This document shows positions 3,501-55,500 of a stretch of DNA of 64,000 nucleotides, piece after piece. Below the pieces are notes generated by a model, which made no database searches, was not told the origin of the DNA, and worked only from the letters and a program-made list of their open reading frames with translations. A program made the translations under genes and the position numbers. Numbering within the stretch: position 1 is the stretch's first letter; the number at the start of each line of letters is the position of its first letter. This stretch comes from Callorhinchus milii (taxonomy: Eukaryota), in contig NW_024704742.1 in NCBI RefSeq assembly GCF_018977255.1, positions 91,328,001 to 91,392,000 on the forward strand, written 5' to 3'.

Positions 3501-4234
3501 CTGTGGCACAGCATTTATATATATAATATATATGCATATCTAGTATCCATAATATGTTACTGTATTACACAAACTCTACTTCACTATATAAAGACTGGTT
3601 CACATTAAAGATCTATAATAAGCCCAAATAGGAAGCCTAAAATGGCTGGTGCTAATTTTACAGTGCAGAGTGGAATTCATAACACTGGAGGCAACATCTA
3701 ATTCAGAAGAGAAGTTCAGATGTCTTTTGACCCATTTGATATCATCCTTCCAGAACATCCACTCAACCGTCCTATCACATCATCAACGTTGTAAATGAGA
3801 CCAGGGGCCTGGCCTCAACCACCCTTCCTGGTAACCCATTCCAGTTAATTGCATTCTAGGTAAAGAAATATTTCCCGTATCTGAAGTTGCTATTTATTAC
3901 CCTAAACTATCTATTCTATTTCTTAGCGCATTTGAAAGTATTGTTATAGGTTTACCTTCACAATTAGTTTTTCGAATCTTATATTTCTCTATAAGATTCC
4001 AACTGAGACAATTATTTTCAATACTGAGCCCTGTCTATTCACTGCTCAGAGCTCATTGCTGACACTTGGGTTCATTTCTTCACTGTATTACCCCAAGGGC
4101 CTACAACTAATGGTTAAGGCAATGTGGGAACAAATATTTAGACTAGACATCCCTCTGACAACATCTTGAAGACAGAGGATAGTTTTCTAACAGACAACAT
4201 TTACTGTATTAATGCAACTTTTCAACAAACTTAC

Positions 4235-4678
4235 CTTATACATCCATATCCTTCCTTTTCTAATAATGTGTGTCAGTCGATCCACACATACTCTGTGCAG
4301 AGGTAGGTAGAAGCTAAGTTCAGACTGTGGCAGTATGACTGATAGTGCATAAGTACTCCGGTCACCATTCATATTGCCGTCAAATATTAATGACACTATG
4401 ATTACCCCCTTTTCAGCAAGTACGAAGAATTTGACATCAATTGCACCACTTTTGGCACTTCGAAGAATTTCTCCATTTAGTGTGTGGTTTGCCAGAAATG
4501 TTATTTCTCCGTCACTTAGCAGCATCTGTTCATTCTTTGGCGCCCAGATGTGTCTCACTCTTGGACCAAGAATGTTATCCCAATAAGCAAAAGTAGCAGC
4601 TACCAATGGTGATTCACCATCCAGCAAGATCTCTGTTTTTGCAACAGCTGGAGATTGTGGTGGGCAAGAAGAAGACAT
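4235..4678 (-). CDS. C9orf72: C9orf72 first coding exon (human exon 2 equivalent), DENN-like/longin N-terminus
   Basis: Translates MSSSCPPQSPAVAKTEILLDGESPLVAATFAYWDNILGPRVRHIWAPK...KGRIWMYK, matching human MSTLCPPPSPAVAKTEIALSGKSPLLAATFAYWDNILGPRVRHIWAPK. It has 444 coding nt as in human and the donor AAG|GTAAGT at 4235/4234. The probable acceptor (ctttgcttactag) places the exon start at 4737. Confidence 0.98.
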
Positions 4679-4970
4679 ATCTGCAAATAAGTCTTCCCTG
4701 CTGGCATACTCAACACAACACCTATTGTAAGCAGAGCCTAGTAAGCAAAGAAAAAAATATTAATTTTAGTTAATTCATCTAAAGACACAACTTTTTTTTC
4801 TCCGGGTTTACTAATGGTGACTCAATCAAAACAAATGTTGGTAAATGCTGGATTGATGCTAAGTTTGTTGCCATCATCATTCATGCAAACATTGTACGTG
4901 GCATGATTACACTGTACAGTTGTCCATGGAAAGTAGTGATGGTTTTCGCAAACAGCCACTACCCAAATAA

Positions 4971-5336
4971 TAATAATCCTTGTATTTGACATAGAGCCTT
5001 ATCACGTCTTCTAGACATCTGAAAAGCGCTTCACAGAATACACTGCAGAGAATCGAATGTATGTTTTGTGGGCGAAACACGGCAGCCAATTGCACACGGC
5101 AGTGTCACACAAACAGTCACGGATTAAGCGACCAAACTATTATTATTTTTAAAGGATTATTACTCCCACAAAAGCGATCCACCAATCGTCTAATAACAGG
5201 GTTCCTACTTACTGCTGGGTAAACAGAGGCGTGTGGAGTAAGGAAACTTGCCCAATGTTTTGCCCCGCTGCCCGGCAATCAAACCCAGGTCCTTCGCTTG
5301 TGAGGCGAGTGCTCCAACCACGAAGCTACAGGACTA
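4971..5336 (-). mobile_element. tRNA-derived SINE, long form, full length
   Basis: Head agtcctgtagcttcgtggttggagc...gggtttgattgcc (A/B boxes), body ttgggcaagtttccttactccacacgcctctgtttacccagcagtaagtagg and (tta)n tail; flanked by the direct repeat caaataa. Confidence 0.85.
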
Positions 5337-5541
5337 CAAATAACGGTGGTGCCACAGCAGCGAACCGTAACTGTGGCTCTGGTTCTCTTATCTGCCCCTT
5401 TGCCACGTACTCGCGGGTCCTTCATTCACCCCAACTCTCCGTCCACGGTAACGTGCGGTTTGCCCCGGTCTCCCCCCCTCGTCGCCCTGCGGTTGATTTT
5501 TTTTTACTCTGGTTCCTTGCACTCTCGTGGTTGACGTTCCG

Positions 5542-6268
5542 GAACATCGCCAGACTACGGCATTACCTCACCCCTCACGCTGCTGAAACCCTGGTCCACG
5601 CCTTTGTCACCTCAAGGCTGGACTATGGGAACTCTCTCCTCGCCGGCCTTCCCGCCACCTCCCTCCACAAGCTGCAGGTCATTCAGAACTCTGCAGCTCG
5701 TGTACTGTCCCGCACCAGGACCACATCACTCCCACCCTCGCTCACCTCCACTGGCTCCCCATCCCCCAGAGGATCAAATTCAAGATCCTCATCCTCACCT
5801 ACAAGGCCATTCACGGCCTTGCTCCCTCCTACCTCTCCGACCTACTATCCCCCCACGTACCTGCCCGTACCCTCCGTTCCTCTGGCTCCGGTCTGCTCCA
5901 CATCCCCCGCCCCAACCGCCCTACCATTGGTGGTCGGGCCTACAGCCTCTCAGCCCCCAGGCTCTGGAACTCCATCCCCCAGTGCCTTCGCCGCTTTCTC
6001 CCTTTCCTCCTTCAAGGCCGGTCTCAAAACCTTTCTCTTTGACCGAGCCTTCAGCTCCCCTCTCGACTCTCAACCCCCTCCTCGCTCCCTCCCTTCCCTC
6101 CCCTCACCCTGACCATTTCCCCCCTCCTCGCTCCCTCCCTTCCCTCCCCTCACCCTGACCATTTCCCCCCTGCTCGGGTCATGACCCAACTGTGCAGCGC
6201 CTTGGGACGTCCTCCTGACGTGAAAGGCGCTCTATAAATGGAATCTTGTTGTTGTTGTTGTTGTTGTT
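5542..6268 (+). mobile_element. Young 5'-truncated L2 LINE (family A) in C9orf72 intron 1
   Basis: ORF2 C-terminal motifs RNIARLRHYLT..AETLVHAFVTSRLDYGNSLLAGLP..LHKLQVIQNSAARVL. 3' stem-loop at 6197-6230, (GTT)n tail, TSD gttccg (5536-5541/6269-6274) and a ~47-bp tandem duplication in the 3' UTR. Confidence 0.95.
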
Positions 6269-6279
6269 GTTCCGCCCAC

Positions 6280-11642: not shown

Positions 11643-12208
11643 ATATTAAGAGGGATGCTATGTATTTTTGATTATTTCTGACTCCATTTTTGATATTCTA
11701 AAATGTGATGTTATTTTTTCCCACCTTCCTTATGTTCTCACAGCATCCCCAGCATCACCAATGGTGGAACGAAGGGGACGAGGCCAGAGCCAGCCGAGTG
11801 GAGGTAGTGGCTGGTGGAGATGGGGGCAAGCAAGTCGGATAGTTAGGGACGTTCAAGTGGCTCTGCCAGTGCCACTTTGTATCGGTTTTCCACTCTGCCA
11901 ATTCCTCATTGGAAATTCCAGGACATTAGTTGCATTTATAATTTGAGGCTTTCCACCTCAGTTTACTCATTTCCAGGACTGCAGATGAAAAAAGTGAGAG
12001 CAAAAGAGGTTGATGCTCTGATGTCAATTTTGCAGGTTAATTAGACATAGTTTTGTATCAGAGGATTGAAAGATAAGTAAAGGAATATGATTCCAACCCT
12101 TAAAAAAGTCAGAAACATGATCCTGGCAATGATAGGCCTTGACATCTAAAGCTGCAAAAGTATTGCAGTCTAATAGAAAGGAAGCAATCCAAAAGTATTC
12201 AGTGGGAA

Positions 12209-12650
12209 TACAACAATAACAACATCTTGCACTGTATAGTGCCCTTCACGCAGGGTAGCGCCTCGGAGCACTTGACAGTGGTGGAGTCTGCCAATGAGCC
12301 AGAGCGAGAGGGCGAGGATAGTTGACCGTGAGCATGATCAAAAAGGAAGGTCTTTGGGTGGAATTTGGAGGTGGGGAGGGAGGGGCAAGGCAGAGGGATT
12401 GAGGGGGAGAGTTCCAGAGTTTCGGGGCATAGAGGCTGAAGGCATGGCCACTGATGGTGGAACGGAGGGGTTGAGAGACAAATAGGACTCCGGAGCCAGC
12501 CGAGCGGAGACAGCGGGTGGTGGAGTGGGGGGCAAGCAAGTCGGATAGTTAGGGAGGTTCGAGGGCATGAAGGGATTTGAAAACGAGTGAGAGGATCTTG
12601 AAATCAATCCGTTCGGTGATTGGGAGCCATTGGAGCTTGGCAAGGACTGT
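12209..12650 (-). mobile_element. L2 3' fragment (family B)
   Basis: LRSTISGHAFSLYAPKLWNS; family-B tail gaggcgctaccctgcgtgaagggcactata. Confidence 0.9.
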
Positions 12651-12689
12651 CTGGAATAAACTCAATACATGCAAGATAACATGTCAGAG

Positions 12690-13340
12690 AGGCAAATCCT
12701 GCTGACAATCTCAATTAAGTTCTTTAAAAATGTAGAAGAGAGAGGCTTAAGGATATTTCTGTATATGACTTGAGATTTTATGCTATTACGCTATGATTTT
12801 GACATTCCATTTATGCCAGTATTGGCATAAATCAAGAGCCACGATTGTAAGTATTAATATAATACAGCCAGATTGAAAATTGATGCCCTTGTAGAAAGCT
12901 AGCGAGATGTCAGGCTACATTACCAAATCAGTTAAGTTCAGATACTCAAGAGTCATGCTGAAATCATACAGTCCTCTCGTCAGGCCACAGCATAAGAAGG
13001 CTGCCCAAGGCCTAGAGGCAGCAAAGAAGAGAACAACAAGGTTGATTGCCATGGTTAAAGGGATAAACAATAAGGAACAACTGGATAATCAAGAACCTTC
13101 CAGACTCAAAAGTATTTTTTCATTGAATAGAAAAAGTAAATGCAAAACAATATTTTCACGTATGTTGTGGAAACAGGCTAAGAGGACGCAGGCTCAGGGT
13201 TATGCACAGCAAGTTTAGGACATATAACACAAATTATTCTTTACACAGACATTGGTCAACAGTTGGAATGGGTTAACAGTAATGGTGATAGAGACCAGGA
13301 CTCTGTGCTTGTTTAAGAAAAGGCTTTACGCTACAATAGG
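12690..13340 (+). mobile_element. Old degraded CR1 ORF2 fragments
   Basis: GKSC-type start; GYITKSVK..VMLKSYSPLVRPQ..LEAAKKRTTRLIAMVKG resembles CR1 LVRPHLEY..LERVQRRATR; ends with FFTQ..WN-like text. Confidence 0.65.
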
Positions 13341-13629
13341 AACATTTGGTAGGATGGGTTTTTTGGAAGGGGAAATCAAATACCACCATAATAATCCTTG
13401 CAATTAATATAGTGCCTTTTCATCCATCAAGACATCTCAAAGCGCTTTACAGGGTTTATTATGAAGTGGTGTGACTGTATTTTGTGGGCGAAAGCATCTA
13501 TTTCATTTGAATCTTTCATAGGATCTTGTGATTCAAACCTTTCCTGTGATAAAGTAAATATTTTGAAATTCAAGTTGAAATTGTAAATTGGATTATTAGT
13601 GGTCTGTTTAATAGGAGACATAAAGAGAT

Positions 13630-14470
13630 GCAATAGTTATAATTGGGCTCTCAGGGATTGGCCCTGAGACCTTTCACGTCACAATACTTGTTAATAATGT
13701 AAACAAAAGGTAGAGGAATTCAAATATCTGAGTTAACAGATGACGCAGAAATGTATGGAAGAAAATAGGATGTTATAGAATCAGAAATTGAATTAAAAAC
13801 TAATGAGATGAATGGACTAAAATTAGACAGTTAAAATCTTGCAACAGTCTTGAAAATTAATGGTACTAAAACACATTCAAAACCATATTGAATATCTCTT
13901 CACTGTAAAACATTGATTTAAGCACAAATCTGCAGTTTATTGTTTGGTGGATATAAAAGTGCTATGGTTTATGAACTGTTATAGTTTATTGCCAATGAGT
14001 ATGATGCAGGATTTTAAGGATTTACAAGCAATAGATTTTTTTAAAACTAGTTACGATGATGAAAGCAAATCATGTTGTATGCTTAAAGGGACAACTGATA
14101 AATATAACATGAAGAGAAACTATCCTGAATCTAACCATTATGATGAATCATCTGCACAAAGAGAACCCCACTATTTACATCCACGCAGAGGACTGACGCA
14201 AAGGTCGGAATGCAAAGATATGCACATTTGCCAGAACACTAGGAAGTAATCAAAGAAAACTGACAAAGAGAAAGGTGATAAGAAGTTGTGTGCATTTAAG
14301 CAAATCTGTTATGAATTGTAAGCAATATAACAGCACAAATGTAAAGTCATGCATTCACATTCGGAAGTAAAATGACTGCACATATATGTTTTGAAATACT
14401 CCATAGTGCAAAAAGGAGAGCAGTGGTATATTAATCAGCTCACTATTGAGAGTAGACTGTAGATCTATAC
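13630..14470 (+). mobile_element. Old CR1 RT fragment split by a ~480-bp piggyBac-like relic (~13850-14335)
   Basis: Degenerate QGxxLGP/ADD-region text at 13645-13750 and KCKVMH at ~14337. The intervening sequence translates with piggyBac C-terminal-like patterns. Confidence 0.45.
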
Positions 14471-14519
14471 TAAGTAGAGAGGAAATAAAAGATTGCAATT
14501 TCATTGCCCTTTGTCATGT

Positions 14520-15680
14520 TTCTTTTGGTCAGCCAGGTGTCTGACACATGCGGAAATTCATCACATTGCTTAAGAGTATCCAAACCAAACTGAGAATTCT
14601 AAGCATCGCACTTATATATGGAAATCCCAGAGATATTTATTGGAATGGAATGCGCACTCTCTCCCTGGAGGGATGCATCCTGCTTACCTAATTTTGGAAA
14701 GTATTGGGCCCAGATTGGCAAGAGCCAAGGCTTGCGGACCCCAGAGTGTGCACTGAGGTATTGCTGGAGTTGAACCAGCTAAAACCGCATATCTTGCCAT
14801 TGTGAGAGTACTGCCTGCAAGCTTTCCCGCTGCTTGTCCAGCTAGGACCACCCTACCCATTAGGGCTTTGGCTTACAGGGTTAACAGGAGATGAGTGGGA
14901 AGAGTGACTGGTCTGCCCTTCCAAGTCCTACTGATGACCCAGTCATCAGCAGTGCCCTGGAATACTGCGGACCTGCCTGGCTCAGGAACTGGGCCACAGA
15001 GGGTTGGCTTGATTCTGATATTCCATTGCCAAACGTGTCACCTTGGAGCCAGTTCAGCTCCAAAGAGACCCTGCTTACCTCCCCCCAAGGAGGATGTTGG
15101 TTGTTTGACATCCGGCAATGGCAGATTTGAGCCCTCACTAAATAATAATCCTTGCATTTGATATAACGCTTTTCATGTCTTCTAGATGTATCAAAGCGTT
15201 TAATGAATGGCAGTTACCAGGAACTCCCTGCTGGATTCCTGGTGGGCAACACAGCTCAACTTGAAATGTGGGAGAACATTGGCACCATCTTCTGCCCACA
15301 ATGTGGACACACATCCCTTCCCATTGAGGGATGGTTCCATTGAGAGAGGTGCAAAGTTTAAACAGCAGCTGCTTACCTCTCTGCAAACCAATCAAGCGCT
15401 GGATGTACGAACATGTGTACACAAACTCAGACTCCAGGTAATGCCTCCCAGAAACTCATCCCAAGCCTCAGAGTTTCCTCATCAGCTATCCGATAGATAT
15501 CTGCCTTCAGTGTGGTGAGAGGATCTTTACAGGACAGCTTACAACATGCCAGCCACCTTGGTGGTCTTGAGGTCGATGCCAATGCATTGTACTAAACTTA
15601 TTCAGCAGTTGCTGCTTAATCCAGGTCCTCATGTGAGGGCTTTTGGCAATTAGACGTGCCCGCTGTAAAGCTGACTCCAC
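14520..15680 (+). mobile_element. Unclassified ancient element, copy 1 (interrupted by a SINE tail at ~15140-15200)
   Basis: Colinear nucleotide similarity to the reverse complement of ~54764-55320 and ~52660-52840, e.g. tggaatggaatgcgcactctctccctggagggatgcatcctgcttacctaattttggaaagtatt versus tggaatagaatgtatactatcccccgagagggatgcaacctgctttcttaattctgaagagtatt. Confidence 0.7.
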
Positions 15681-16267
15681 CTCCAGGATGCTTATGTCAT
15701 GTTAAACACCTCAAAGTGTTTCACAAATAATTGCTATCAAGAATAGTCCCTATTTCTGTTGACAAATGTGGCTGCATTTTAAAGCTGCAAGGTCCCACAA
15801 ATAGTATAAGGTGAATGACCACTAGAAGTAGATTAGTTGGCAAGAACATTAGGGAAACTCCTTTCAAAAATAATCTTATGGGATTTTAAATGTCCATATG
15901 AAAAGGCACACAGGGTTTCAGTTTTCATGGGATCATAGAATCTTACAGCACAGAATGAGGCCATTCAGCCCATTGTGTCTAAGCCGGCTCTTTGAAAAGA
16001 GCTATCCAATGCAACCCCACTGCTCAGTTCTTTCCCCATATATAATTTTAATGGCTCATCCAAAACTTCACTAACAAGACTGCTGTTAATGATAGCTGAG
16101 TGTTCAACTTTTCTCTGGCTCTAATCTGCCTTTACACAATTTCAATTAATTTTTTAAAAAAACCTTGGGTTTTCTGTGGAATTTTATGAAGCACAATGGT
16201 CCTACCCATGGAGACATCTTGAAGATGTGATAAGGCCCTGTATCAAATGCAAGAATTATATATTATA

Positions 16268-17288
16268 CTAGCTGTACCCGTTGCAGCTTCACTTGCAACC
16301 AAAGGATCCAAAATAGAATGTGGATTGACACACAGACAGAAACATTTTATCTTTATTTATACTCAGCTGGGAGGACTCCTGTGGGAGGACTCCTATTAAA
16401 GCTACGGTAGCCAAAGGGGTTTACTGTGTGATCCGGCAGGTCCTCGAGTTATCGCAAGGCTTCCGATTAGACAGCATTTGCAGTTTTTCCTCCTTCGGTC
16501 ATGATGTATAGGTTTTGAGATGAACCCACACATGAGCATCCAACATGGCTGTACATTGAGTGGGCAATTCATTTTGCAGTCATTTCAGCATTCAAGTCCA
16601 GCTGTGCTGTTCTTTGAGTGGGCAGTTCAATTTAATGTGTTCTTACAGTCTTTTCAGCATTGACAGCCAGCTGTGTTGTTCTTTGTTCTTCCATTTCATT
16701 TAATTGGCCTTCTCTTTTTTGTCTTGCATTTGTATTTGTCCTTGAAAGGCTTGATTTTCGCTTCTTAGGCATCTTCCCTTAAGATTAAGAAAATATGCTA
16801 TTGGGAGGACTCCTATGGGAGGACTGAGTGGGAAGACTCAGTGGGAGGACCCAACTGTGCAGCGCCTTGGGACGTCCTCCTGACGTGAAAGGCGCTCTAT
16901 AAATGGAATCTTGTTGTTGTTGTTGTTGTTGAGGACTCCTGGTTGGGAGTACTGAAGATCCTATGACAACCCAAAAAAACTGCCATACATTTGTTGCAGA
17001 ATACATTAGTATTGATGTATCTCTTCAGAAAGGTATGTGCTTCCCTTTGTCACCATTTTGTTGCAGAATACCATGCATACCTCGTGTTTTGAGGCTTAAT
17101 TAAAGCATTTTTAAAATATAGCTCATCAACTGTAGGAGATCCCTGAAAACAAAAGTGTCAATAACACTCCCGAATGCAAGACCTTTCCGCTGAGGTATAA
17201 ATCATGGCTCTACGTCAATCAGCTATTGTGTTATTGCTGGAAATACAGACACACACACACACAGACTCTTCATCTTTATTAGTATAGA
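16268..17288 (-). mobile_element. Non-autonomous Helitron (internal-deletion derivative)
   Basis: Minus strand begins A|TCTATACTAATAAAG and ends CGGGTACAGCTAG|T (TC...CTAG at an AT target, no TSD), with the subterminal hairpin GTTGCA-N8-TGCAAC. It retains the RepHel N-terminus (16772-16568) and helicase C-terminus (16547-16449). Confidence 0.9.
16851..16930 (+). mobile_element. 80-bp tail-only L2 insertion inside the Helitron
   Basis: Identical to the 3' end of the L2 at 6186 onward; TSD gaggac (16845-16850/16931-16936). Confidence 0.92.
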
Positions 17289-33572: not shown

Positions 33573-36500
33573 CAGTCACTACACTTTTTAGTAAAATTAG
33601 TAACAGTAACAGAAAGGTGAGATTAGAAAGATACTCAGGAGTTTGTCTTGGACTAACTTCGGGAGTCGGTGAGAGATTCAATAGGAATCAATTAGGAGTA
33701 AGGTCCCTGGCAGGTAGGACACACAGGTTGAGTGTGTGTGTTTTATGCAGGTAGTGGGCTTGATGCCAGGTTTGGCACAAGGCCAGGTATGTCCCACCTG
33801 CTCTTCAGATGAGATATTACCTCATCTGCCTATTCTTTCGGATGTTTGGCACTATTCAAAAAACTGCAGGGAGTTTCTCCCAGTATCCTAGCCAACAATC
33901 CCCAAAATAAAATTGGCTCCATGGCTGTGGGACAGCGCTTTGTGCAAATTGACTGCTGTGTTTGCTCACAAAACACACAGTCATTCCAATTTACAATATA
34001 TTTTGTGAAGTGCTTTGGGATATCCTCCTGGTGTGAAAGGCACTATGCAAAATGCAAGGATTATCATAATTATTATTGAACATCAGTCCTAATTGATTCT
34101 CAATTTTTTTTGGTCCTCTATGCTTCTCCCCTCCTCTTCCAACTCATACTGTAATTCAGTTCTATGGATGCTGGTTGACCTCAGATACGTCACCCAAGTG
34201 TCCGTTCTTCACATGGGAGACTCAACAGTTATGCCTGTTACGCTCTTGATCCTACGTCCACACACACACACGTGAATTTCCAGAAGAAATTTCTGGTAAT
34301 GATTAGCAGCTGGAATCCTGGGTGATTTTTAACTCTCTAATCCATGACCATTGAGACCCACCAACTGAAGGCCCCTATTACTGCCCCAGATAAGATCAAC
34401 TAACTCAGCAGAGATTAGGTATCAAACCTGGAATGCACTGGATCTGTTTGGTTCAGTCTCTCACCAATCAGTCAATAAATGACTTTGCCACTGGGTGAGA
34501 ACTGTGTGGAACTTTTTAGTCTGTCAGATGACTTATTCCAATGCAGGCCCTTTATAAGGTCTAAATCGCTGCACAACGGGTACAATTAGCAGCAAGCATT
34601 ATTCCTCAAGTTCCCACTGGATGCATTAAACTATTCAATGAAACATGGGACCTCAGTCTCAATGGACATAAGTGAAAGAAAGCTGGAAGGAAGATTGTTA
34701 GGTGCCATTGAAAAGAACATCATAATCACAAAAAGTTCATATAATATCAAATAATGCATTAGTAGGTTACAATGCAGTATTCACTTCCAAGGATTGTGGT
34801 ACTTTCGCATCTCCTTGTATAAGCCAGAACATTGTAATACTCATGTTTTACTTGATTAAAACCCAGGGATAAATAAATACACAATCCTTGAAAATTAAAT
34901 AAAAATTAAAAATTAAATATTAAAAATTAAATACCTCAAGATGTGCTACTTTACCTGAAACATTCAGACTAACAAAGCAAGCAAGGTTAAGGGTCACCCA
35001 TGCAGTACAATGTAATATGCTTGACTTTTCCATGTCACACCTCATGCTACCTTGTTGGGCTGCTACAAATAGATGGTTGAGCTCCAGAACACTTATAGAG
35101 TTTTGCTGTCAAGAGATGCATTAGATTTCTAGTATGTGGCATTAAGTCATATGAAATTGTCCATGCTATGAATAATATTACATTGATGTCAACAGTCTCC
35201 ACAAGGGAATGTAATTATCCAGCTGAGTAACACAGAGGTAAAGCTTTTATGTCAGTCACTTGAGCAAAAAATTACATTGCATACACTGTAGCTCTTCAAA
35301 GACTCCATCAATAAGCATCACCAGAAATTTTGAAAGAAAGCAATGCCAGAGAATCCACAGCAGCTGGATCTGAAAGAAAAAGACCAATTACCTTTTGGAT
35401 GATAATTTATTGTGATGAATGGCACATTAAATTGCAGATGTGCTAAATAAATTCTTTCTAAGGCTCACTGGTAAAATTGGCGATCCTCTCACCTATTACC
35501 TCAAGCTTCGGGTTCACTCCTCTTTGCATATGTTCTTGAGTTTCTTTGCTATTAACCTGCCATTGTTGTTCATTTTAAGCTTCAAATACACATTCTTCCT
35601 CCTCACAGTCTCCTAACTGTGTTGAAATGAAAGCTCATCACACTGCATCCGTTGCTAGCTCATTCCATCCTGGGACTTCAAGACTGGAACTTGTTTGCCC
35701 TCTTCTCTTCCTCTGATAATCTACAGGCTCTTAAAATCCAAACTTGGGATAACTTAACCATACATTCTTGACTTATCTCATTTCTCTCTCCTACTCCTTT
35801 CAACCTCAGTGCCTTCCTGCACTATGGATCTTGAACTTTCACTTTGTTGTTAAAAAAATGAATGTCCCATCCTGAGAATTTTTTCCCCTTGGTTTTGGTT
35901 TCTTCCATTTCATAGGTCAACAACAACAACTTGCACTTATATAGCGCCCTCTGCAGGGTAGCGCCTCAGAGTGCTTAACAGTGGCGGAGCCTGACTTCGA
36001 GCTGGGGGGGTCGGGGAGGGGAAAAGGAGGTTCATTACCAACTATCAGTGTCCCTCCTTTGGATGAGATTTTATATCGAGGTTCCCACCTGTTTAGGTGG
36101 ATGTTAAAGATCCCATGGCACTATTTGAAAACAGAAGGGAGTGGTGTCCTGGCCAAGAATCCCCCAAATAAAATTGGTCATTCGTTTTATGGCTGTTTGT
36201 GGTACATTGCTATGGCACTCACACCCCTATCCACATCATCAGTGGGTGGATTATCAGCCTCTCTCCTCTCTAGAACTCCATCCCAGAGTTCCTCTGACTT
36301 GCTCTCTCCCACACCTTGTTCAAGGTCCGTCTCAAGACCTATCTCTTTGCCACTGTAATCCTTTCCCTCCCCATCCCCCTTGGCTCCCACCTCCAGCTCA
36401 GTTGCCAAGCTTCGGTGAAAGGCACTATATAAATGTAAATTAGTATTGAATTGTGTAACATTTGTGTTCAATGGATTACTTCTGTCTTACTTACGGTCTG

Positions 36501-37845
36501 TAACTAAACGTATTTTATCCAATGCCTTGGGACATCCTCCTGACGTGAAAGGTGCTATAGAAATGTAATTTGTTGTTGTTATTTTGTTTTAATTGGCAAA
36601 TGCTTTTGTTAAATTGTAAAACTTTCATCTTCTGAAAGAGACTTAGTGTAGCAGGAGATTAAGCATACTAATTATAAAGGATTAATTGATAAGGCACGCT
36701 ACATAAATAGGCGAATACTACAAAGATGGCATTCTAGTTCACAGCAGGCAAGGAATGCTGATATGAATTGTGTACAAGCTCAAAAACAAGTGAAGATTTG
36801 AACACCTTTTCAGATTATAACATCCTACATTAATGGCTGATTGGATCAAACTGCAGTATTGAAGAATCAATCCATCATTATTTACTATCCTCCAGCATTG
36901 CACACCAATATAAAAATTGGGAGTGGGGAGGATATGTTTTCTTCAGCTGCCAGTGAATTACAGGCATCAAGGTTACTGTTCTAAGAAGAAAAATGTGAGA
37001 AGGAAATCTGTTCTACAGATTAAAATAATAGGGGTTGATATGTGAGCACAATATTCATTATAAACGAATACAATGAGGTTTGAGCACATTTGCAATACTT
37101 ATTAATAAATAAACACTGTTGTCTGAGATATAGTAACAATATTGGCAGCAGTGAGTGGTGCATGCAATACTCATAGTGCATTGTGTAATCAGAACTTGTG
37201 ATCAACACTTCCGATTGTTATTCAGTTCTTGTTAGATGGGGGAGTCTTGATTTTGTTCCATTATTTTACTGGGCTTTATTAATAATTATTAATAATGATG
37301 CTTACATTTGATATAGCGCTTTTCACATCAGGAGGATGTCTCAAAGCACTTCACAGGATATCCAGTAAAGTGTAGTGGCTGTGTATTTTGTGAGCCAACA
37401 AAATGAAAAAAAATTGGAAAGAAACTGGAAGAGGAAAATGGATTTGTATTTGAGAGCAATAAGGAACATATTTTAATCCATTTTAAAAAAATGAGTAAAG
37501 CTCGAGTAGCTATTATGACCACACTAAATTTGTCTGACTGCCCACAATAACTTTGCTTTGCTTTGAACAATTTGAACAGACTACAGCTGAATTTTATTTA
37601 CAAATCTCAGAAGCAATCTAAATGTGACAGTCAGGACCCCAAGCCAACTCAAACTAGACCTATTTATTTTCTGAGGTCTGTCTGCCACATGTTTTTTATA
37701 ATTTTTGTTTTGGTACAACTATTGTTCCCGTGGTGTGTGATGATGTCTCACCCATTTCCTGTAGCTGCCTGTGTTGGAGCTGGTCACATTTCTCTACCCT
37801 CATCTCTCTCAGTTCAGTTTTCTGGAGTGGGAATCAGATTCTTAT

Positions 37846-37972
37846 CAGCAATTGGCTGCCGCGTTCGCCCACAAATATACAGTCAATTCACTTTACAGTG
37901 TGTTCTGTGAAGCGCTTTGGGACGTCCTCCCGACGTGAAAAGCGCTATATCAAATGCAAGGATTATTATTAT
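37846..37972 (+). mobile_element. SINE 3' fragment with L2-family-A loop
   Basis: gcgctttgggacgtcctcccgacgtgaaaagcgctatatcaaatgcaaggattattattatt. Confidence 0.88.
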
Positions 37973-38524
37973 TCTTGTGTTCGGGCACAGACTGAGCACT
38001 TGGAGTGAGTGTTTGAGCCATGTTTGTCTGTCTCTATATGCATGCGTGTGGGAGAGACAGCTTGCACCCTTGATCTAGCCAGATGCTGGTAAGTGCCCAG
38101 TTCTGATGGACTGTGATCCATTAACAGTCATAGCTAATTTAAAGTGATTTGATCAGAGACTGGCACAAATCATTGCAGACTAGATTATTGTACAGTCTTT
38201 GCTGCTCAGCTTTTGGCGTCTTTCTTGTTTCAGGCGAATGCCCCTGTCAGTGAAGTGAGTGATGATTACAATGTGCATGCACAATACTGTGCCATCTCTG
38301 GACATCTTACAACTTTTAAATAGCAGCTTCAGGAAGCTTAACAAGTTGCTTCAGGGATGTGACAGAGTGCATAGAGATGCATTCAGCCCCACCCAGCACT
38401 TTAACATCTGTTCCAATGCAATTACTCCCAGCACGTGCACACTTGCCTATAACCATGCACATGCGAGGCAGCGGAAGGGAAGTTTTACAGTTAAACTGTG
38501 GTTAGGTTCTGTATCACCACTCCC

Positions 38525-51622: not shown

Positions 51623-51924
51623 ATAATAATAATAATAATAATCCTTGCATTTGATATAGCGCTTTTCACGTCTTCTAGATGTCCCAAAGCGCTTCACAGA
51701 ATATACTGTAAAGTGAATTGACTGCATATTTGTGGGCGAACGCAGCAGCCAATTGCGCACAGCAATGTCGTAGATTGAAAATGACCAATTTTTTTTTTTT
51801 TGGAGGGCTTATTATTAGGCGTGTGGAGTAAGGAAACTTGCCCAAGGTTTCGCCCTGACCTGGAATTGAACTCGGGTCTCTCACTTGCAAAGCGAGTGCT
51901 CTAACCACTGAGCTACAGGACTCC
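51623..51924 (-). mobile_element. tRNA-Ala-derived SINE, short form, full length
   Basis: GGAGTCCTGTAGCTCAGTGGTTAGAGCACTCGCTTTGCAAGTGAGAGACCCGAGTTCAATTCC: A and B boxes, anticodon arm with TGC; (TTA)n tail. Confidence 0.92.
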
Positions 51925-52559: not shown

Positions 52560-55500
52560 TGGGCAGTTGAGTCTTAATTTGACTAGATTGTGATGTCCTG
52601 TGCACCTGAACTGTGTAGAGATGCCATGACGCGGCTGACATGGACAATGCTCTTGAGTCATATGGACGTCACATGTTGAGTAGCTGTTTATCTGACCCCA
52701 GGAAACCTTAATAGCAAAGCCACTGTTAATTTGGTCTAATTCCAGCATTTATCCTGAGCACATGTCACTGATCAACTGCTGGTACCCTTTATAATCTTAT
52801 TGTTTGATAGCCAACAGCTCCACATGTGTCAAAGCAAATTACAACAACAACAGCCTACACTTATATAGCGCCCTCCACGCTGGGTAGTGTCTCGAGTGCT
52901 TAACAATGTTGGAGCCCAAGGCCGAGCCAGGGGGAGGGGGAAGGTGACCATAGGTAGGTCGAAAAGGAAGGTCTTCAGGTGCGACTTGAAGATGGGGAAG
53001 GAGGGGTCTAGGCGAAGGGGTTGAGGGAGGGAGTTCCAGAGTTTCAGGGCCTAGTGGCTGAAGGTATGGCCCCCGATGGTGGAACGAAGGTTTCGGGGGA
53101 CGCGGTGGAGGCCGGACCCAGTAGAGCGTAGGCAGCGGGTACTGTTGTGGGGAGAGAGGAGGTTAGAGAGGTGGGGGGGTGCCAAAGAATGGAGGGATTT
53201 AAACACTAGAGTGAGGATCTTGAAGTCGATCCGCTCTGTGACAGGGAACCAGTGGAGTTTGGCAAAGACTGGAGTAATCGGGGTACGAAGTTTGGTGCGG
53301 GTAAGAATGTGGGCGGCGGAGTTTTGAATTAGTTGTATTTTGTGAATAGTGGAGGAGGGGAGACCGGCGAGGAGGGAGTTAGAGTAGTCCAGCCGAGAGG
53401 TGACAAAGGCATGGACAAGGCTTTCAGCAGCTTTTGGGGTGAGGTATTGACAGAGACGGGCAATGTAGTGGAGGTGGAAGAAAGCAGTGCTGGTCATGGA
53501 CTGGATGTGGGGGAGGGAGGATAACTGGGGATTGAACCTGACGCCTAAGTTGCACACTGGTTCAGAGAGTTTTAAGGACAGGTCGGGTAGGTTGAGGAGG
53601 TTGGAACCGTGGGACAGAAGATGTCGGCAGGAGCCAAAGAGTATAGCTTCCATCTTGTTGACGTTTAACTGCAGGAAATTTGCGCTCATCCAGCTCCTGA
53701 TGTCTGACAGACACGCTGACAAAACATCAGGGGACTGGGGGCCACAGCTGTAGGTGGCAAAGTAGAGTTGAGTGTCATCCGCATACATGTGGAAGTTAAT
53801 CCCGTGTCTGCGGATGACATCACCAAGAGAGAGCATATAGATGAGGAAGAGAAGGGGGCCAAGGATGGATCCTTGGGGTACTCTGTAGGATGGAAGTGTG
53901 AAGAAAAGCCATTTGCAGAAATGTAGTGCTGGCGGTTTGTAAAATAGGACTCGAACCAAGTGAGTGCTGTCCCACTGAGGTGGATGATGGAGAACAGGCG
54001 GTGGAGGAGGATGGCGTGATTGATTATTTTGAATGCGACGGAGAGATCCAGGAGGATCGGAGGCAGGGGGAGCCCTGGTCACAGATAGAGAGGATATCAT
54101 TTGTGACCTTCACGAGCGCTATCTTTGTACTGGGCAGGGCAGAAACCAGACTGGAGGGGTTTGAGTAGGATGTGGAGGGAGTGGCGTGAGTGAAGTTGGT
54201 TGGCAACAACGCGTTCCAGTGCTTTGGCAAGGAAGGGCATGTTTGAAATAGGGCGATAGCGGCCGAGGTTGGAGGGATTAAGGGTAGGTTTTTTAAGGAG
54301 GGGGGGTGATGAACGCGGTTTTGAGGGTGTTTAATGGTGTCTGCCAGCAGTGGGCAGAGGAGGGGGAGCTGAGTGACCAGCAGTTGGGTGGGGAGGGGGT
54401 CGAGGCAGCAGGTGGTGGGTTTCATTGTGGTGATGGTGGATGAGAGTGAGGAAAGAGAGATGGGGACAAATGAATGTAGGATGGGGGCCATGGTAAGAGC
54501 TGAGGGCTGGGTGGGTGAGGGAGATGGAATGGGGGTGGTGGTAGGCGACACGCGGCAGAGGGATGAAGCTGCCAGGCGGATGTTGTCAATTTTAGAGGTA
54601 AGGAAGTCCATGACCTCTTCGCACTTGGAGTTAGATGTGATGATTGAGGGTGCTTGAGGGGGTGCACAGAGGAGGTGATGGGCGGTGGAGAATAGGATTT
54701 TCGAGTTATTGTTGGCCTCCAGTATGATGTTTGAGTCGTGCGCAGTTTTTGCGAACTATGTCTAAATTGTGACGTCTAAATTAGAATCCTTGAAAGTGCT
54801 ACTCCAAGAATTTGTCATGCCAGAGGCATTGAATCCAGTAGATGTTAGTTTATGAGGAGAGGGATAAATGCAGAAACAAATCTCCAAAACATAGGAGACA
54901 CTGCAGTCCCAACTCACATCTAACCTTTCGACTGGCATTGAGAGCAGAGATTCTTCCCACTTGGCTCTTGCTAACTTAGCAAGACAAAGCCTTGGTGGGT
55001 AGGATGTTCTTAGGTGGACAAACGGCAGGAAACTTGCCAAACAATCTTGGTATTAGCTGACTAAACTCCAAGCGCTACATCAAATGTTAGGATTATTTAA
55101 TACTCTTCAGAATTAAGAAAGCAGGTTGCATCCCTCTCGGGGGATAGTATACATTCTATTCCAGATATGGGAAAATTTTGAAGCATACATTGCTTGCATA
55201 TGTGGACCTCTATCTGGTTTGGACACTCTTACGATTGATGATGAGTTTTTTTTTGTGAGGATGACTTGTTTATTCAGTAGAGTTAAGGCAGTCTGTGACG
55301 TCTAGCTGACATTATGAGTAGTAGAGAGCAGGATACAGGATTGAATAGATAGTCTCTTCTGCTGGTGGGGGCTCAGCCCTTTCCTGGAGCTCATACCTTT
55401 GGGAATCGGGGGAGGAATGTTACAGAGTGAGTCATCGTCGTCGTTCCCCCCCCCCGCTGAGGTGCCCTTGGGGGTCTTTTGGTTCTCTCTGGATTTTCAC

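What the first reader, a model, noticed from the sequence alone, without database searches (positions are those of the whole stretch)
16268..17288. Complete Helitron deletion derivative retaining STPR repeats and the Pif1-helicase C-terminus
Seen: TC/CTAG termini at an AT target and a 3' hairpin. The minus frame from 16772 reads MPKKRKSSLSRTNTNARQKREGQLNEMEEQRTTQLAVNAEKTVRTH*IELPTQRTAQLDLNAEMTAK, with repeats spaced exactly 23 aa apart. It is followed almost directly by HVGCSCVGSSQNLYIMTEGGKTANAV*SEALR* (16547-16449). Known: 23-aa STPR repeats and a terminal YVxxSRV...KTxNxVYxExL motif mark the two ends of animal Helitron RepHel proteins. The 5' end with a (TG)n microsatellite resembles invertebrate Lep1-type Helitrons. 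Inference: a multi-kb autonomous rolling-circle transposon collapsed to 1 kb; horizontal acquisition is possible. Neither peptide appears in the ORF track.
Basis: partly seen in the sequence, partly recalled or inferred. Interest (0 to 1): 0.75.

Follow-up and report, generated by a model that had tools for sequence, protein, structure and literature searches.

The report
Decayed, internally deleted Helitron copy
This is an old, broken copy of a rolling-circle jumping gene that kept both ends but lost about nine tenths of its enzyme gene; it is real but ordinary, one of many such relics in this fish-like genome and its relatives.

Summary
Window 16268-17288 (minus strand, 1021 nt) is a canonical Helitron (HLE1): 5'-TC and CTAG-3' between A and T, with a 20-nt hairpin 12 nt from the end. 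The two peptides are the first ~66 and last 32 residues of a RepHel protein. Profiles built from fetched RepHel ends score them at E 1e-8 and 6e-9, and 0 of 2000 shuffles reach either score. Pfam STPR and PIF1 do not hit them. About 93% of the gene is gone. The single reading frame is coincidental: it has three internal stops and an 11-nt deletion. Public contigs show a highly repeated family in this species and three relatives, with shared majority bases and deletion joints. Listed copies differ by 15-17%, the orthologous flank by 8-11%. So the family is old and most simply inherited vertically among them. No close invertebrate donor was found: 0 of 80 autonomous loci match in DNA beyond (TG)n. 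Ancient transfer is not excluded. A new member of a known kind; low interest.

The parts
16268..17288 (-). Whole element: non-autonomous HLE1 Helitron, 1021 nt, between host A and T, no target duplication
   Evidence: repeated family in 4 of 4 runs laid
17170..17288 (-). 5' terminal segment: TC start, AT-rich motif, (TG)n at about 17248-17263; inner edge approximate
   Evidence: resembles 5' ends of autonomous loci L075 and L079; summed contig depth 35,827 at 17190 in X15 against 8.92 in the unique flank
16848..16931 (+). 84-nt 3' tail of a LINE with (TTG)n, inserted in the opposite orientation; the hexamer GAGGAC lies on both sides (16845-16850, 16931-16936)
   Evidence: 84 of 84 bases identical to 6183-6266, the tail of a LINE whose ORF matches an RT-bearing ORF at 74% over 58 aa; L2 label recalled
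16802..16854 (.). 13-14-nt minisatellite array in the 5' leader; further units at 16931-16956
16575..16772 (-). RepHel start codon, basic N-terminal motif and two 23-aa STPR-type repeats; one internal stop
   Evidence: gapless match to P0048 residues 7-73 at 39%
16547..16579 (-). Start of a third repeat, out of frame after an 11-nt deletion; the large-deletion junction lies at about 16552-16547
   Evidence: 6 of 32 listed contig pieces stop at 16545-16546 and none spans the junction
16449..16547 (-). Last 32 codons of the PIF1-like helicase plus stop codon; one internal stop; the motif VI arginine position reads Cys
   Evidence: R1457 named as the arginine finger in PMC4778049 (passages)
16368..16394 (.). 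Two units of the same minisatellite in the 3' trailer
16328..16357 (-). Degenerate second 5'-end-like motif (24 of 30 bases alike to 17280-17251), without the TC start
16280..16299 (-). Subterminal hairpin, 6-bp stem and 8-nt loop
   Evidence: loop carries GAAGC, as do hairpins of related loci picked by that motif
16268..16271 (-). CTAG 3' terminus, followed by host T
   Evidence: 3 listed pieces of other copies stop at 16265-16273 with 38-128 unmatched letters beyond
16206..16267 (+). Target context, not part of the element: 3' tail of another repeat ending in an ATT-type microsatellite, into which the Helitron inserted
   Evidence: 10 other copies of this tail in the window, 9 of them ending in (ATT)n

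Best explanation
This is a dead, non-autonomous copy of a canonical HLE1 Helitron of the STPR-bearing animal type. Step 1 (inferred from homologue lengths): the parent was about 5-5.5 kb and encoded a RepHel of about 1500-1600 aa. Step 2 (the A|T site is shown; the mechanism is established for Helraiser, PMC4778049): RepHel nicked the 5'-TC end, peeled off one strand, stopped at the hairpin plus CTAG and joined the copy between A and T, here in the AT-rich tail of another repeat. Step 3 (loss shown, timing inferred): about 4.2-4.6 kb between repeat 3 and the last 32 codons was deleted, during copying or later in place. This junction looks rare among copies. Step 4 (shown): the copy then decayed neutrally, with stops, an 11-nt deletion and private substitutions. 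Step 5 (inferred): a younger LINE inserted an 84-nt 5'-truncated tail into the leader. The family spread widely, mostly as shorter deletion forms, before organisms A-D separated, and was passed down vertically. It makes no protein and could move only in trans.
For: Termini, target and hairpin geometry fit HLE1 as defined in PMC11417382 and PMC4038834 (passages; sequence). The C peptide's best local match ends within the last 10 residues in 109 of 120 fetched RepHel proteins. The N peptide aligns from the start methionine, without gaps, in the three best-scoring ones. Profile E-values are 1.1e-8 and 5.8e-9, with 0 of 2000 shuffles reaching them. tblastn of 7 full RepHel proteins finds only these two ends in the window, plus one weak hit (E 0.035) at 53.3-53.7 kb. 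In X15, summed contig depth is 12,000-15,000 in the terminal bins, 215-241 in the middle and 8.92 in the unique flank; the other three runs show the same shape. At 15 of 18 listed sites inside the element, the same other base is the majority in all four runs. Five listed internal joints each occur in 2-3 organisms. Listed element pieces differ from this copy by 15.1-17.1%, the orthologous flank in B, C and D by 8.1-10.7%.
Against: No whole genome is held, so no full second copy, parent or empty site was seen. The 5' boundary is not confirmed to the base by other copies. Pfam STPR and PIF1 miss the peptides, and the first direct search found nothing among 36 candidates. Contig depth is not a copy number. 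The divergence figures use 27 element pieces out of the 32 listed among about 129,300; these are the longest pieces, probably biased to old copies, and capped by the 80% filter. Only 40 of 705 variant rows and 15 of 565 joints were shown, and joints at the minisatellite may be artefacts. The runs were found by holding this sequence, so they say nothing about absence in other lineages.
Confidence: 0.88

Rival explanations
1. The family entered the common ancestor of organisms A-D by an ancient horizontal transfer from an aquatic invertebrate and was inherited vertically afterwards. This is compatible with the best explanation and differs only on origin.
For: The best N-terminal match is a marine snail protein, P0048 (Nucella lapillus; score 100 against 82 for the next). 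The named RepHel hits are nearly all invertebrate. Helitron transfer among animals, including a jawless fish, is documented (PMC2997563, passages). The elephant shark is described as poor in DNA transposons (PMC6817897, passages).
Against: Identity to P0048 is only 39% and 53% at protein level. DNA identity to the best metagenomic loci is 47-61%, with third positions at 25-50%, far below the >80% over >400 bp criterion of PMC2997563. The protein set was seeded from another protein (P0005), so it is not a ranking of true nearest relatives, and it includes an amphibian hit (P0093). Helitrons were found in the vertebrate lineages surveyed except birds (PMC4350176 section 16).
Confidence: 0.3
2. 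The element is composite: the last ~95 nt (16268-16362) are a separate mini-Helitron or a second 5' end, taken on as the new 3' end by read-through.
For: A 5'-end-like 30-mer sits at 16328-16357 and aligns as well to a 5' end of L079 as the true end does. L079 has three such motifs in a row. Depth in X15 steps from 461 at 16397 to 3,860 at 16340 and 37,942 at 16312. Read-through to a new end is shown for Helraiser (PMC4778049).
Against: The motif lacks the TC start and is AT/TG-rich. Listed pieces from other copies run across it (16273-16545 in X2, 16265-16388 in X10), so it is part of the family, not special to this locus. The depth steps are also expected from nested internal deletions.
Confidence: 0.25
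3. This exact short form was itself a mobile non-autonomous subfamily with many copies.
For: Both termini are intact; other deletion joints recur across organisms; Helraiser cross-mobilises non-autonomous elements.
Against: 0 of 32 listed pieces span 16546-16574, 6 stop at 16545-16546, and depth is lowest at 16516-16651.
Confidence: 0.25
4. A recent horizontal transfer from an insect or other invertebrate (Lep1-like).
For: The 5' end looks like those of invertebrate-type loci L075 and L079.
Against: The copy is old and decayed and the family is shared by four relatives. No terminal match in viral contigs (0 hits) or metagenome contigs (0 hits). blastn against 80 autonomous loci gives 1 hit, a (TG)n run.
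Confidence: 0.04
5. An exapted element: a fused STPR-helicase mini-protein, or a regulator of C9orf72.
For: The two peptides share one frame. The element lies about 9 kb upstream of the CpG island (6.0-7.75 kb) that precedes the C9orf72 coding exon.
Against: Three internal stops and a frameshifted third repeat; no sign of conservation in B-D at this site; expression not tested.
Confidence: 0.02
6. A chance patchwork of short motifs, not a transposon.
For: The hairpin and the CTAG|T site are individually common.
Against: Two independent profile hits in the right order and orientation between the right termini, and family-wide depth that falls to single-copy level outside the 5' end.
Confidence: 0.01

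Closest known systems
Non-autonomous HLE1 (canonical Helitron) deletion derivatives, e.g. Xenopus laevis HeliXL45 and HeliXL2, bat HelibatN1-3
   Same: 5'-TC, hairpin plus CTRR, A|T target, ends shared with an autonomous parent (PMC11417382 and PMC4778049, passages).
   Different: This copy keeps recognisable stubs of both ends of the gene, is heavily decayed and holds a nested LINE tail. No sequence comparison with those families was possible.
STPR-bearing RepHel proteins of invertebrates, e.g. P0048 (Nucella lapillus ACOMHN_045134)
   Same: Basic start motif followed by 23-aa repeats; the same terminal 32 residues. STPR is almost exclusive to HLE1 (PMC11417382).
   Different: Only 39% and 53% identical; Rep and helicase cores absent; the peptide itself does not score against PF21107.
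Helraiser (bat Helitron consensus, PDB 7lcc)
   Same: TC/CTAG ends, a 19-bp palindrome 11 nt from the end against 20 nt and 12 nt here, and the motif VI region.
   Different: Autonomous, 5,296 bp, 1,496 aa. The window peptide did not retrieve it directly.
Lep1 Helitrons of Lepidoptera
   Same: Non-autonomous, 5'-TC, A|T target (PMC4038834, passages). The microsatellite near the 5' end is recalled, not read.
   Different: Lep1 copies are about 190-344 bp with a 134-bp core, a CTRY end and an acquired 3' piece, with no RepHel remnant mentioned in the passages read; this element is 1 kb with coding stubs.

Membership tests
HLE1 / canonical Helitron | 5'-TC terminus | tested here: met
   A|TC at 17288; similar starts in L075 and L079; boundary not confirmed to the base by other copies
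HLE1 / canonical Helitron | CTRR-3' terminus | tested here: met
   CTAG at 16271-16268; 3 listed pieces of other copies stop at 16265-16273
HLE1 / canonical Helitron | 16-20-nt hairpin about 10-12 nt before the 3' end | tested here: met
   20 nt, 12 nt from the end; weak on its own, z -0.45
HLE1 / canonical Helitron | Insertion between A and T with no target duplication | tested here: met
   Flanks; no empty orthologous site seen
HLE1 / canonical Helitron | RepHel homology in the element or its parent | tested here: met
HLE1 / canonical Helitron | Dispersed repetition with shared ends | tested here: met
   Terminal depth three orders above the unique flank in X15, same shape in 4 of 4 runs; no copy count
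Autonomous Helitron | Intact Rep (HUH) and PIF1 helicase domains | tested here: not met
   Only ~75 plus 32 codons remain of 1466-1631 aa in 7 homologues
STPR repeat (Pfam PF21107) | Score above the gathering cut-off | tested here: not met
   0 families; but the peptide aligns to the PF21107-positive part of P0048, so it is a decayed homologue
HLE2 / Helentron / DINE-1 | Short terminal inverted repeats and a T|T target | tested here: not met
   Target is A|T; no terminal inverted repeat among 8 inverted pairs
Lep1 | At least 70% identity over more than 100 bp to the 134-bp Lep1 core | not testable with these tools
   Source paper not held; the consensus was not in the passages read; supplements of PMC4038834 not opened
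Lep1 | Short element with CTRY end plus acquired 3' sequence | tested here: not met
   1021 nt with RepHel stubs and a single CTAG end
Horizontally transferred Helitron (criteria of PMC2997563) | [quoted passage not shown] | tested here: not met
   0 of 80 loci match beyond (TG)n; 47-61% coding identity; no eukaryote genome collection could be searched, so the test is partial

The most novel reading that the evidence does not exclude
This relic marks an undescribed STPR-type Helitron family that invaded the ancestor of a group of cartilaginous fishes by ancient horizontal transfer from a marine invertebrate (mollusc-like) lineage, and amplified to thousands of mini-elements in genomes described as poor in DNA transposons.
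Probability: 0.25. Interest if true: 0.45.

Novelty: new member of a known kind. Interest (0 to 1): 0.2.

Why it matters
As it stands it matters little: it is a neutral transposon fossil. It does give a usable handle (both termini plus both ends of the gene) for assembling the family and dating a Helitron burst that seems to predate four related species. If the host is a cartilaginous fish, as inferred, a many-copy rolling-circle family would refine the view that these genomes hold few DNA transposons (PMC6817897, PMC4350176). I found no paper describing such a family, but Repbase, Dfam and the supplements of the fish and HELIANO surveys were not searched and may list it.

Tried and rejected
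No whole genome is held. Pfam scan of the peptides: 0 families. Word-index search with the X-read peptide among longer proteins: 0 of 36 candidates. PDB search with it: 3 weak Spy hits, E 0.8-1.3, rejected. HMMER search of representatives: 4 hits; 3 (P0004, P0006, P0007) were dropped as repeat-inflated noise, and P0005, a triple copy of the Helitron helicase end, was kept as seed although its E-value is inflated too. A search with the P0048 N-terminus returned only itself, 1 of 3688 candidates. Terminal patterns: 0 hits in viral contigs and metagenome contigs; the RepHel alignment found 0 of 33 stretches in viral contigs. Empty site in organisms B-D: not among the 15 of 565 joints shown, and their cover has holes next to the element, so inconclusive. 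Three pieces starting at 16942 looked like proof that the LINE tail is private to this copy; rejected, because the tool reports reads cut at skipped repeats 16904-16941. A 16-nt inverted pair 16323-16338 / 17205-17220 at 75% is within chance by my rough estimate. Rfam: nothing in the element. No further host gene among 120 of 183 non-repeat frames scanned. Earlier findings: none by sequence, words or place; 8 of 277 Helitron notes shown concern other genomes and matters. PMC7070016 has no occurrence of Helitron or shark; PMC10468316 and PMC9004415 passages gave nothing on this family.

Full report
Setting. The window is vertebrate DNA. An exon at 4187-4756 (minus) matches human C9orf72 residues 1-148 at E 2.9e-86, and a CpG-rich stretch lies at about 6.0-7.75 kb. 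About 28% of the window repeats within itself, mostly LINE fragments with reverse-transcriptase matches. I infer a cartilaginous fish from the look of these LINE tails, which is recalled and not tested; PMC6817897 (passages) describes the elephant shark as dominated by L2 and CR1. No genome is held. The element lies about 9 kb upstream of the CpG island, and no other host gene was found in 120 of 183 non-repeat frames.

Observation. On the minus strand, 17288 to 16268 starts with TC after an A and ends with CTAG before a T. A hairpin of 6 bp with an 8-nt loop ends 12 nt before the end. This matches HLE1 as defined in PMC11417382 and PMC4038834 (passages) and the Helraiser geometry of 19 bp at 11 nt (PMC4778049, passages). 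These marks alone are weak: 62 of 200 shuffles fold as well, and 3 of 46 CTAG|T sites in the window have a similar hairpin. The target is the ATT-type tail of another repeat with 10 further copies in the window.

Coding remnants. Both peptides read as quoted. Pfam does not recognise them, and a word-index search failed. A full HMMER search gave 4 hits, of which one, P0005, holds three copies of the Helitron helicase end. With it I fetched 120 of 192 long RepHel proteins. The C peptide's best match ends within the last 10 residues in 109 of 120. The N peptide aligns from the start methionine without gaps in the three best cases, and starts within the first 150 residues in 58 of 120, many of which lack an N-terminus. 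Profiles from 23 N-termini and 108 C-termini, chosen by simple motifs and length and not by score to the query, hit 16772-16575 at E 1.1e-8 and 16544-16452 at E 5.8e-9. Nothing else in the six frames scores above zero, and 0 of 2000 shuffles reach either score. The best N match, P0048, carries PF21107 STPR repeats, and STPR is almost confined to HLE1 (PMC11417382). About 107 of some 1470-1630 codons survive, so about 93% of the gene, 4.2-4.6 kb, is lost. The position of the Helraiser arginine finger reads Cys here.

The frame is not a fusion gene. Repeats 1 and 2 are 69 nt apart. Repeat 3 follows at 58 nt after an 11-nt deletion and reads in another frame up to 16547, where the helicase end begins. 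There are three internal stops. A five-base microhomology at the junction is possible but cannot be shown without the parent.

Extra parts. An 84-nt LINE 3' tail at 16848-16931 (plus strand) is identical to 6183-6266 and 73-95% alike to about 20 other tails in the window. It is flanked by a repeated hexamer, which may be a target duplication or just two units of the surrounding minisatellite. I read it as a younger insertion; that it is private to this copy was not shown. A 30-mer at 16328-16357 resembles the 5' end (24 of 30). Stacked 5' ends also occur in L079 and in a Xenopus family (PMC11417382).

Family and age. Of 23 runs listed, 18 hold part of the element, under four organism labels plus unlabelled rows. 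I laid 4, one per organism. X15 is the window's species: its flanks differ at 2 of 806 bases and one contig bridges the 5' junction. In X15, summed depth is 8.92 in the unique flank, 12,000-15,000 in the terminal bins (35,000-38,000 at single sites) and 215-241 in the middle. B, C and D show the same shape. The tool warns that depth is no copy number; I take it only as many copies, mostly shorter than this one. Five listed joints inside the element recur in 2-3 organisms, though some touch the minisatellite and all rest on 23-49 letters. Six of 32 listed pieces stop at 16545-16546 and none crosses the junction, so this deletion is rare. At 15 of 18 listed sites in the element, all four runs share a majority base that differs from this copy; only 40 of 705 rows were shown. 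Listed element pieces differ by 15.1-17.1%, and one orthologous flank piece each in B, C and D by 10.7, 9.9 and 8.1%. The pieces are the longest ones and may be biased to old copies. Together this points to a burst before A-D separated, and vertical descent since.

Horizontal transfer. I fetched 80 of 275 autonomous Helitron loci from metagenome contigs. blastn gives one hit, a (TG)n run. The coding stubs are 51-61% (C, 7 loci) and 47-48% (N, 2 loci) identical in DNA to the best loci. Terminal patterns found nothing in viral or metagenome contigs. This is far from the >80% over >400 bp used in PMC2997563 (passages). A similar 5' motif occurs in 7 of 80 loci, so the Lep1 likeness is not specific. 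PMC4350176 (section 16) reports Helitrons lost in birds among the vertebrates surveyed, a set that includes the elephant shark. Animal genome assemblies could not be searched, so an ancient transfer stays open; the snail protein P0048 is only a lead.

Mechanism. By analogy with Helraiser (PMC4778049, passages), RepHel nicks at the 5'-TC, unwinds one strand, pauses at the hairpin, cuts after CTAG and joins the copy at an A|T site. The 5' end is essential and non-autonomous elements are moved in trans. Shown here: ends, target, remnants, decay, repetition. Inferred: parent size, order of events, timing.

Literature seen. Passages of PMC11417382, PMC4350176 (plus section 16), PMC4038834, PMC2997563, PMC4778049, PMC6817897, PMC9004415 and PMC10468316; a term search without hits in PMC7070016; PMC3276263 was not held. 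Search listings only for the rest, in which I saw no description of this family. No supplements were opened; those of the HELIANO and fish surveys may bear on novelty.

Verdict. A real, well-read feature, but an ordinary one: a new member of a known kind, interest 0.2.

Noticed in passing
window 6183-6266 and 16848-16931: Two LINE 3' tails 10.6 kb apart are identical over 84 nt while other tails are 73-95% alike; a very young subfamily, a local retrotransposition or gene conversion. Loose ends of this subfamily at 16848 are listed for X15 only among the 24 rows shown.
   Followed up: partly
window 4187-4756 (minus): First coding exon of a C9orf72 orthologue; CpG-rich stretch at about 6.0-7.75 kb upstream.
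   Followed up: partly
window 5153-6271 (plus): A 5'-truncated LINE with a 46-nt tandem duplication in its 3' part lies between the C9orf72 coding exon and the CpG-rich stretch.
   Followed up: no
window 16206-16262: A second family of short 3' tails ending in (ATT)n, at least 11 copies in the window; LINE- or SINE-like.
   Followed up: partly
window 51851-51921 (minus): tRNA-like match (40.2 bits) inside a repeated stretch; probably the head of a SINE.
   Followed up: no
window 53309-53743 (minus): Weak tblastn match (E 0.035) to the helicase part of P0048 inside a LINE region; probably chance.
   Followed up: no
L079 4-780: Three Helitron 5'-end-like motifs in a row ahead of a RepHel gene.
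   Followed up: partly
P0005: A predicted protein made of three tandem copies of the Helitron helicase C-terminus, close to several pseudoscorpion proteins; probably a tandem array of Helitron ends read as a gene.
   Followed up: no
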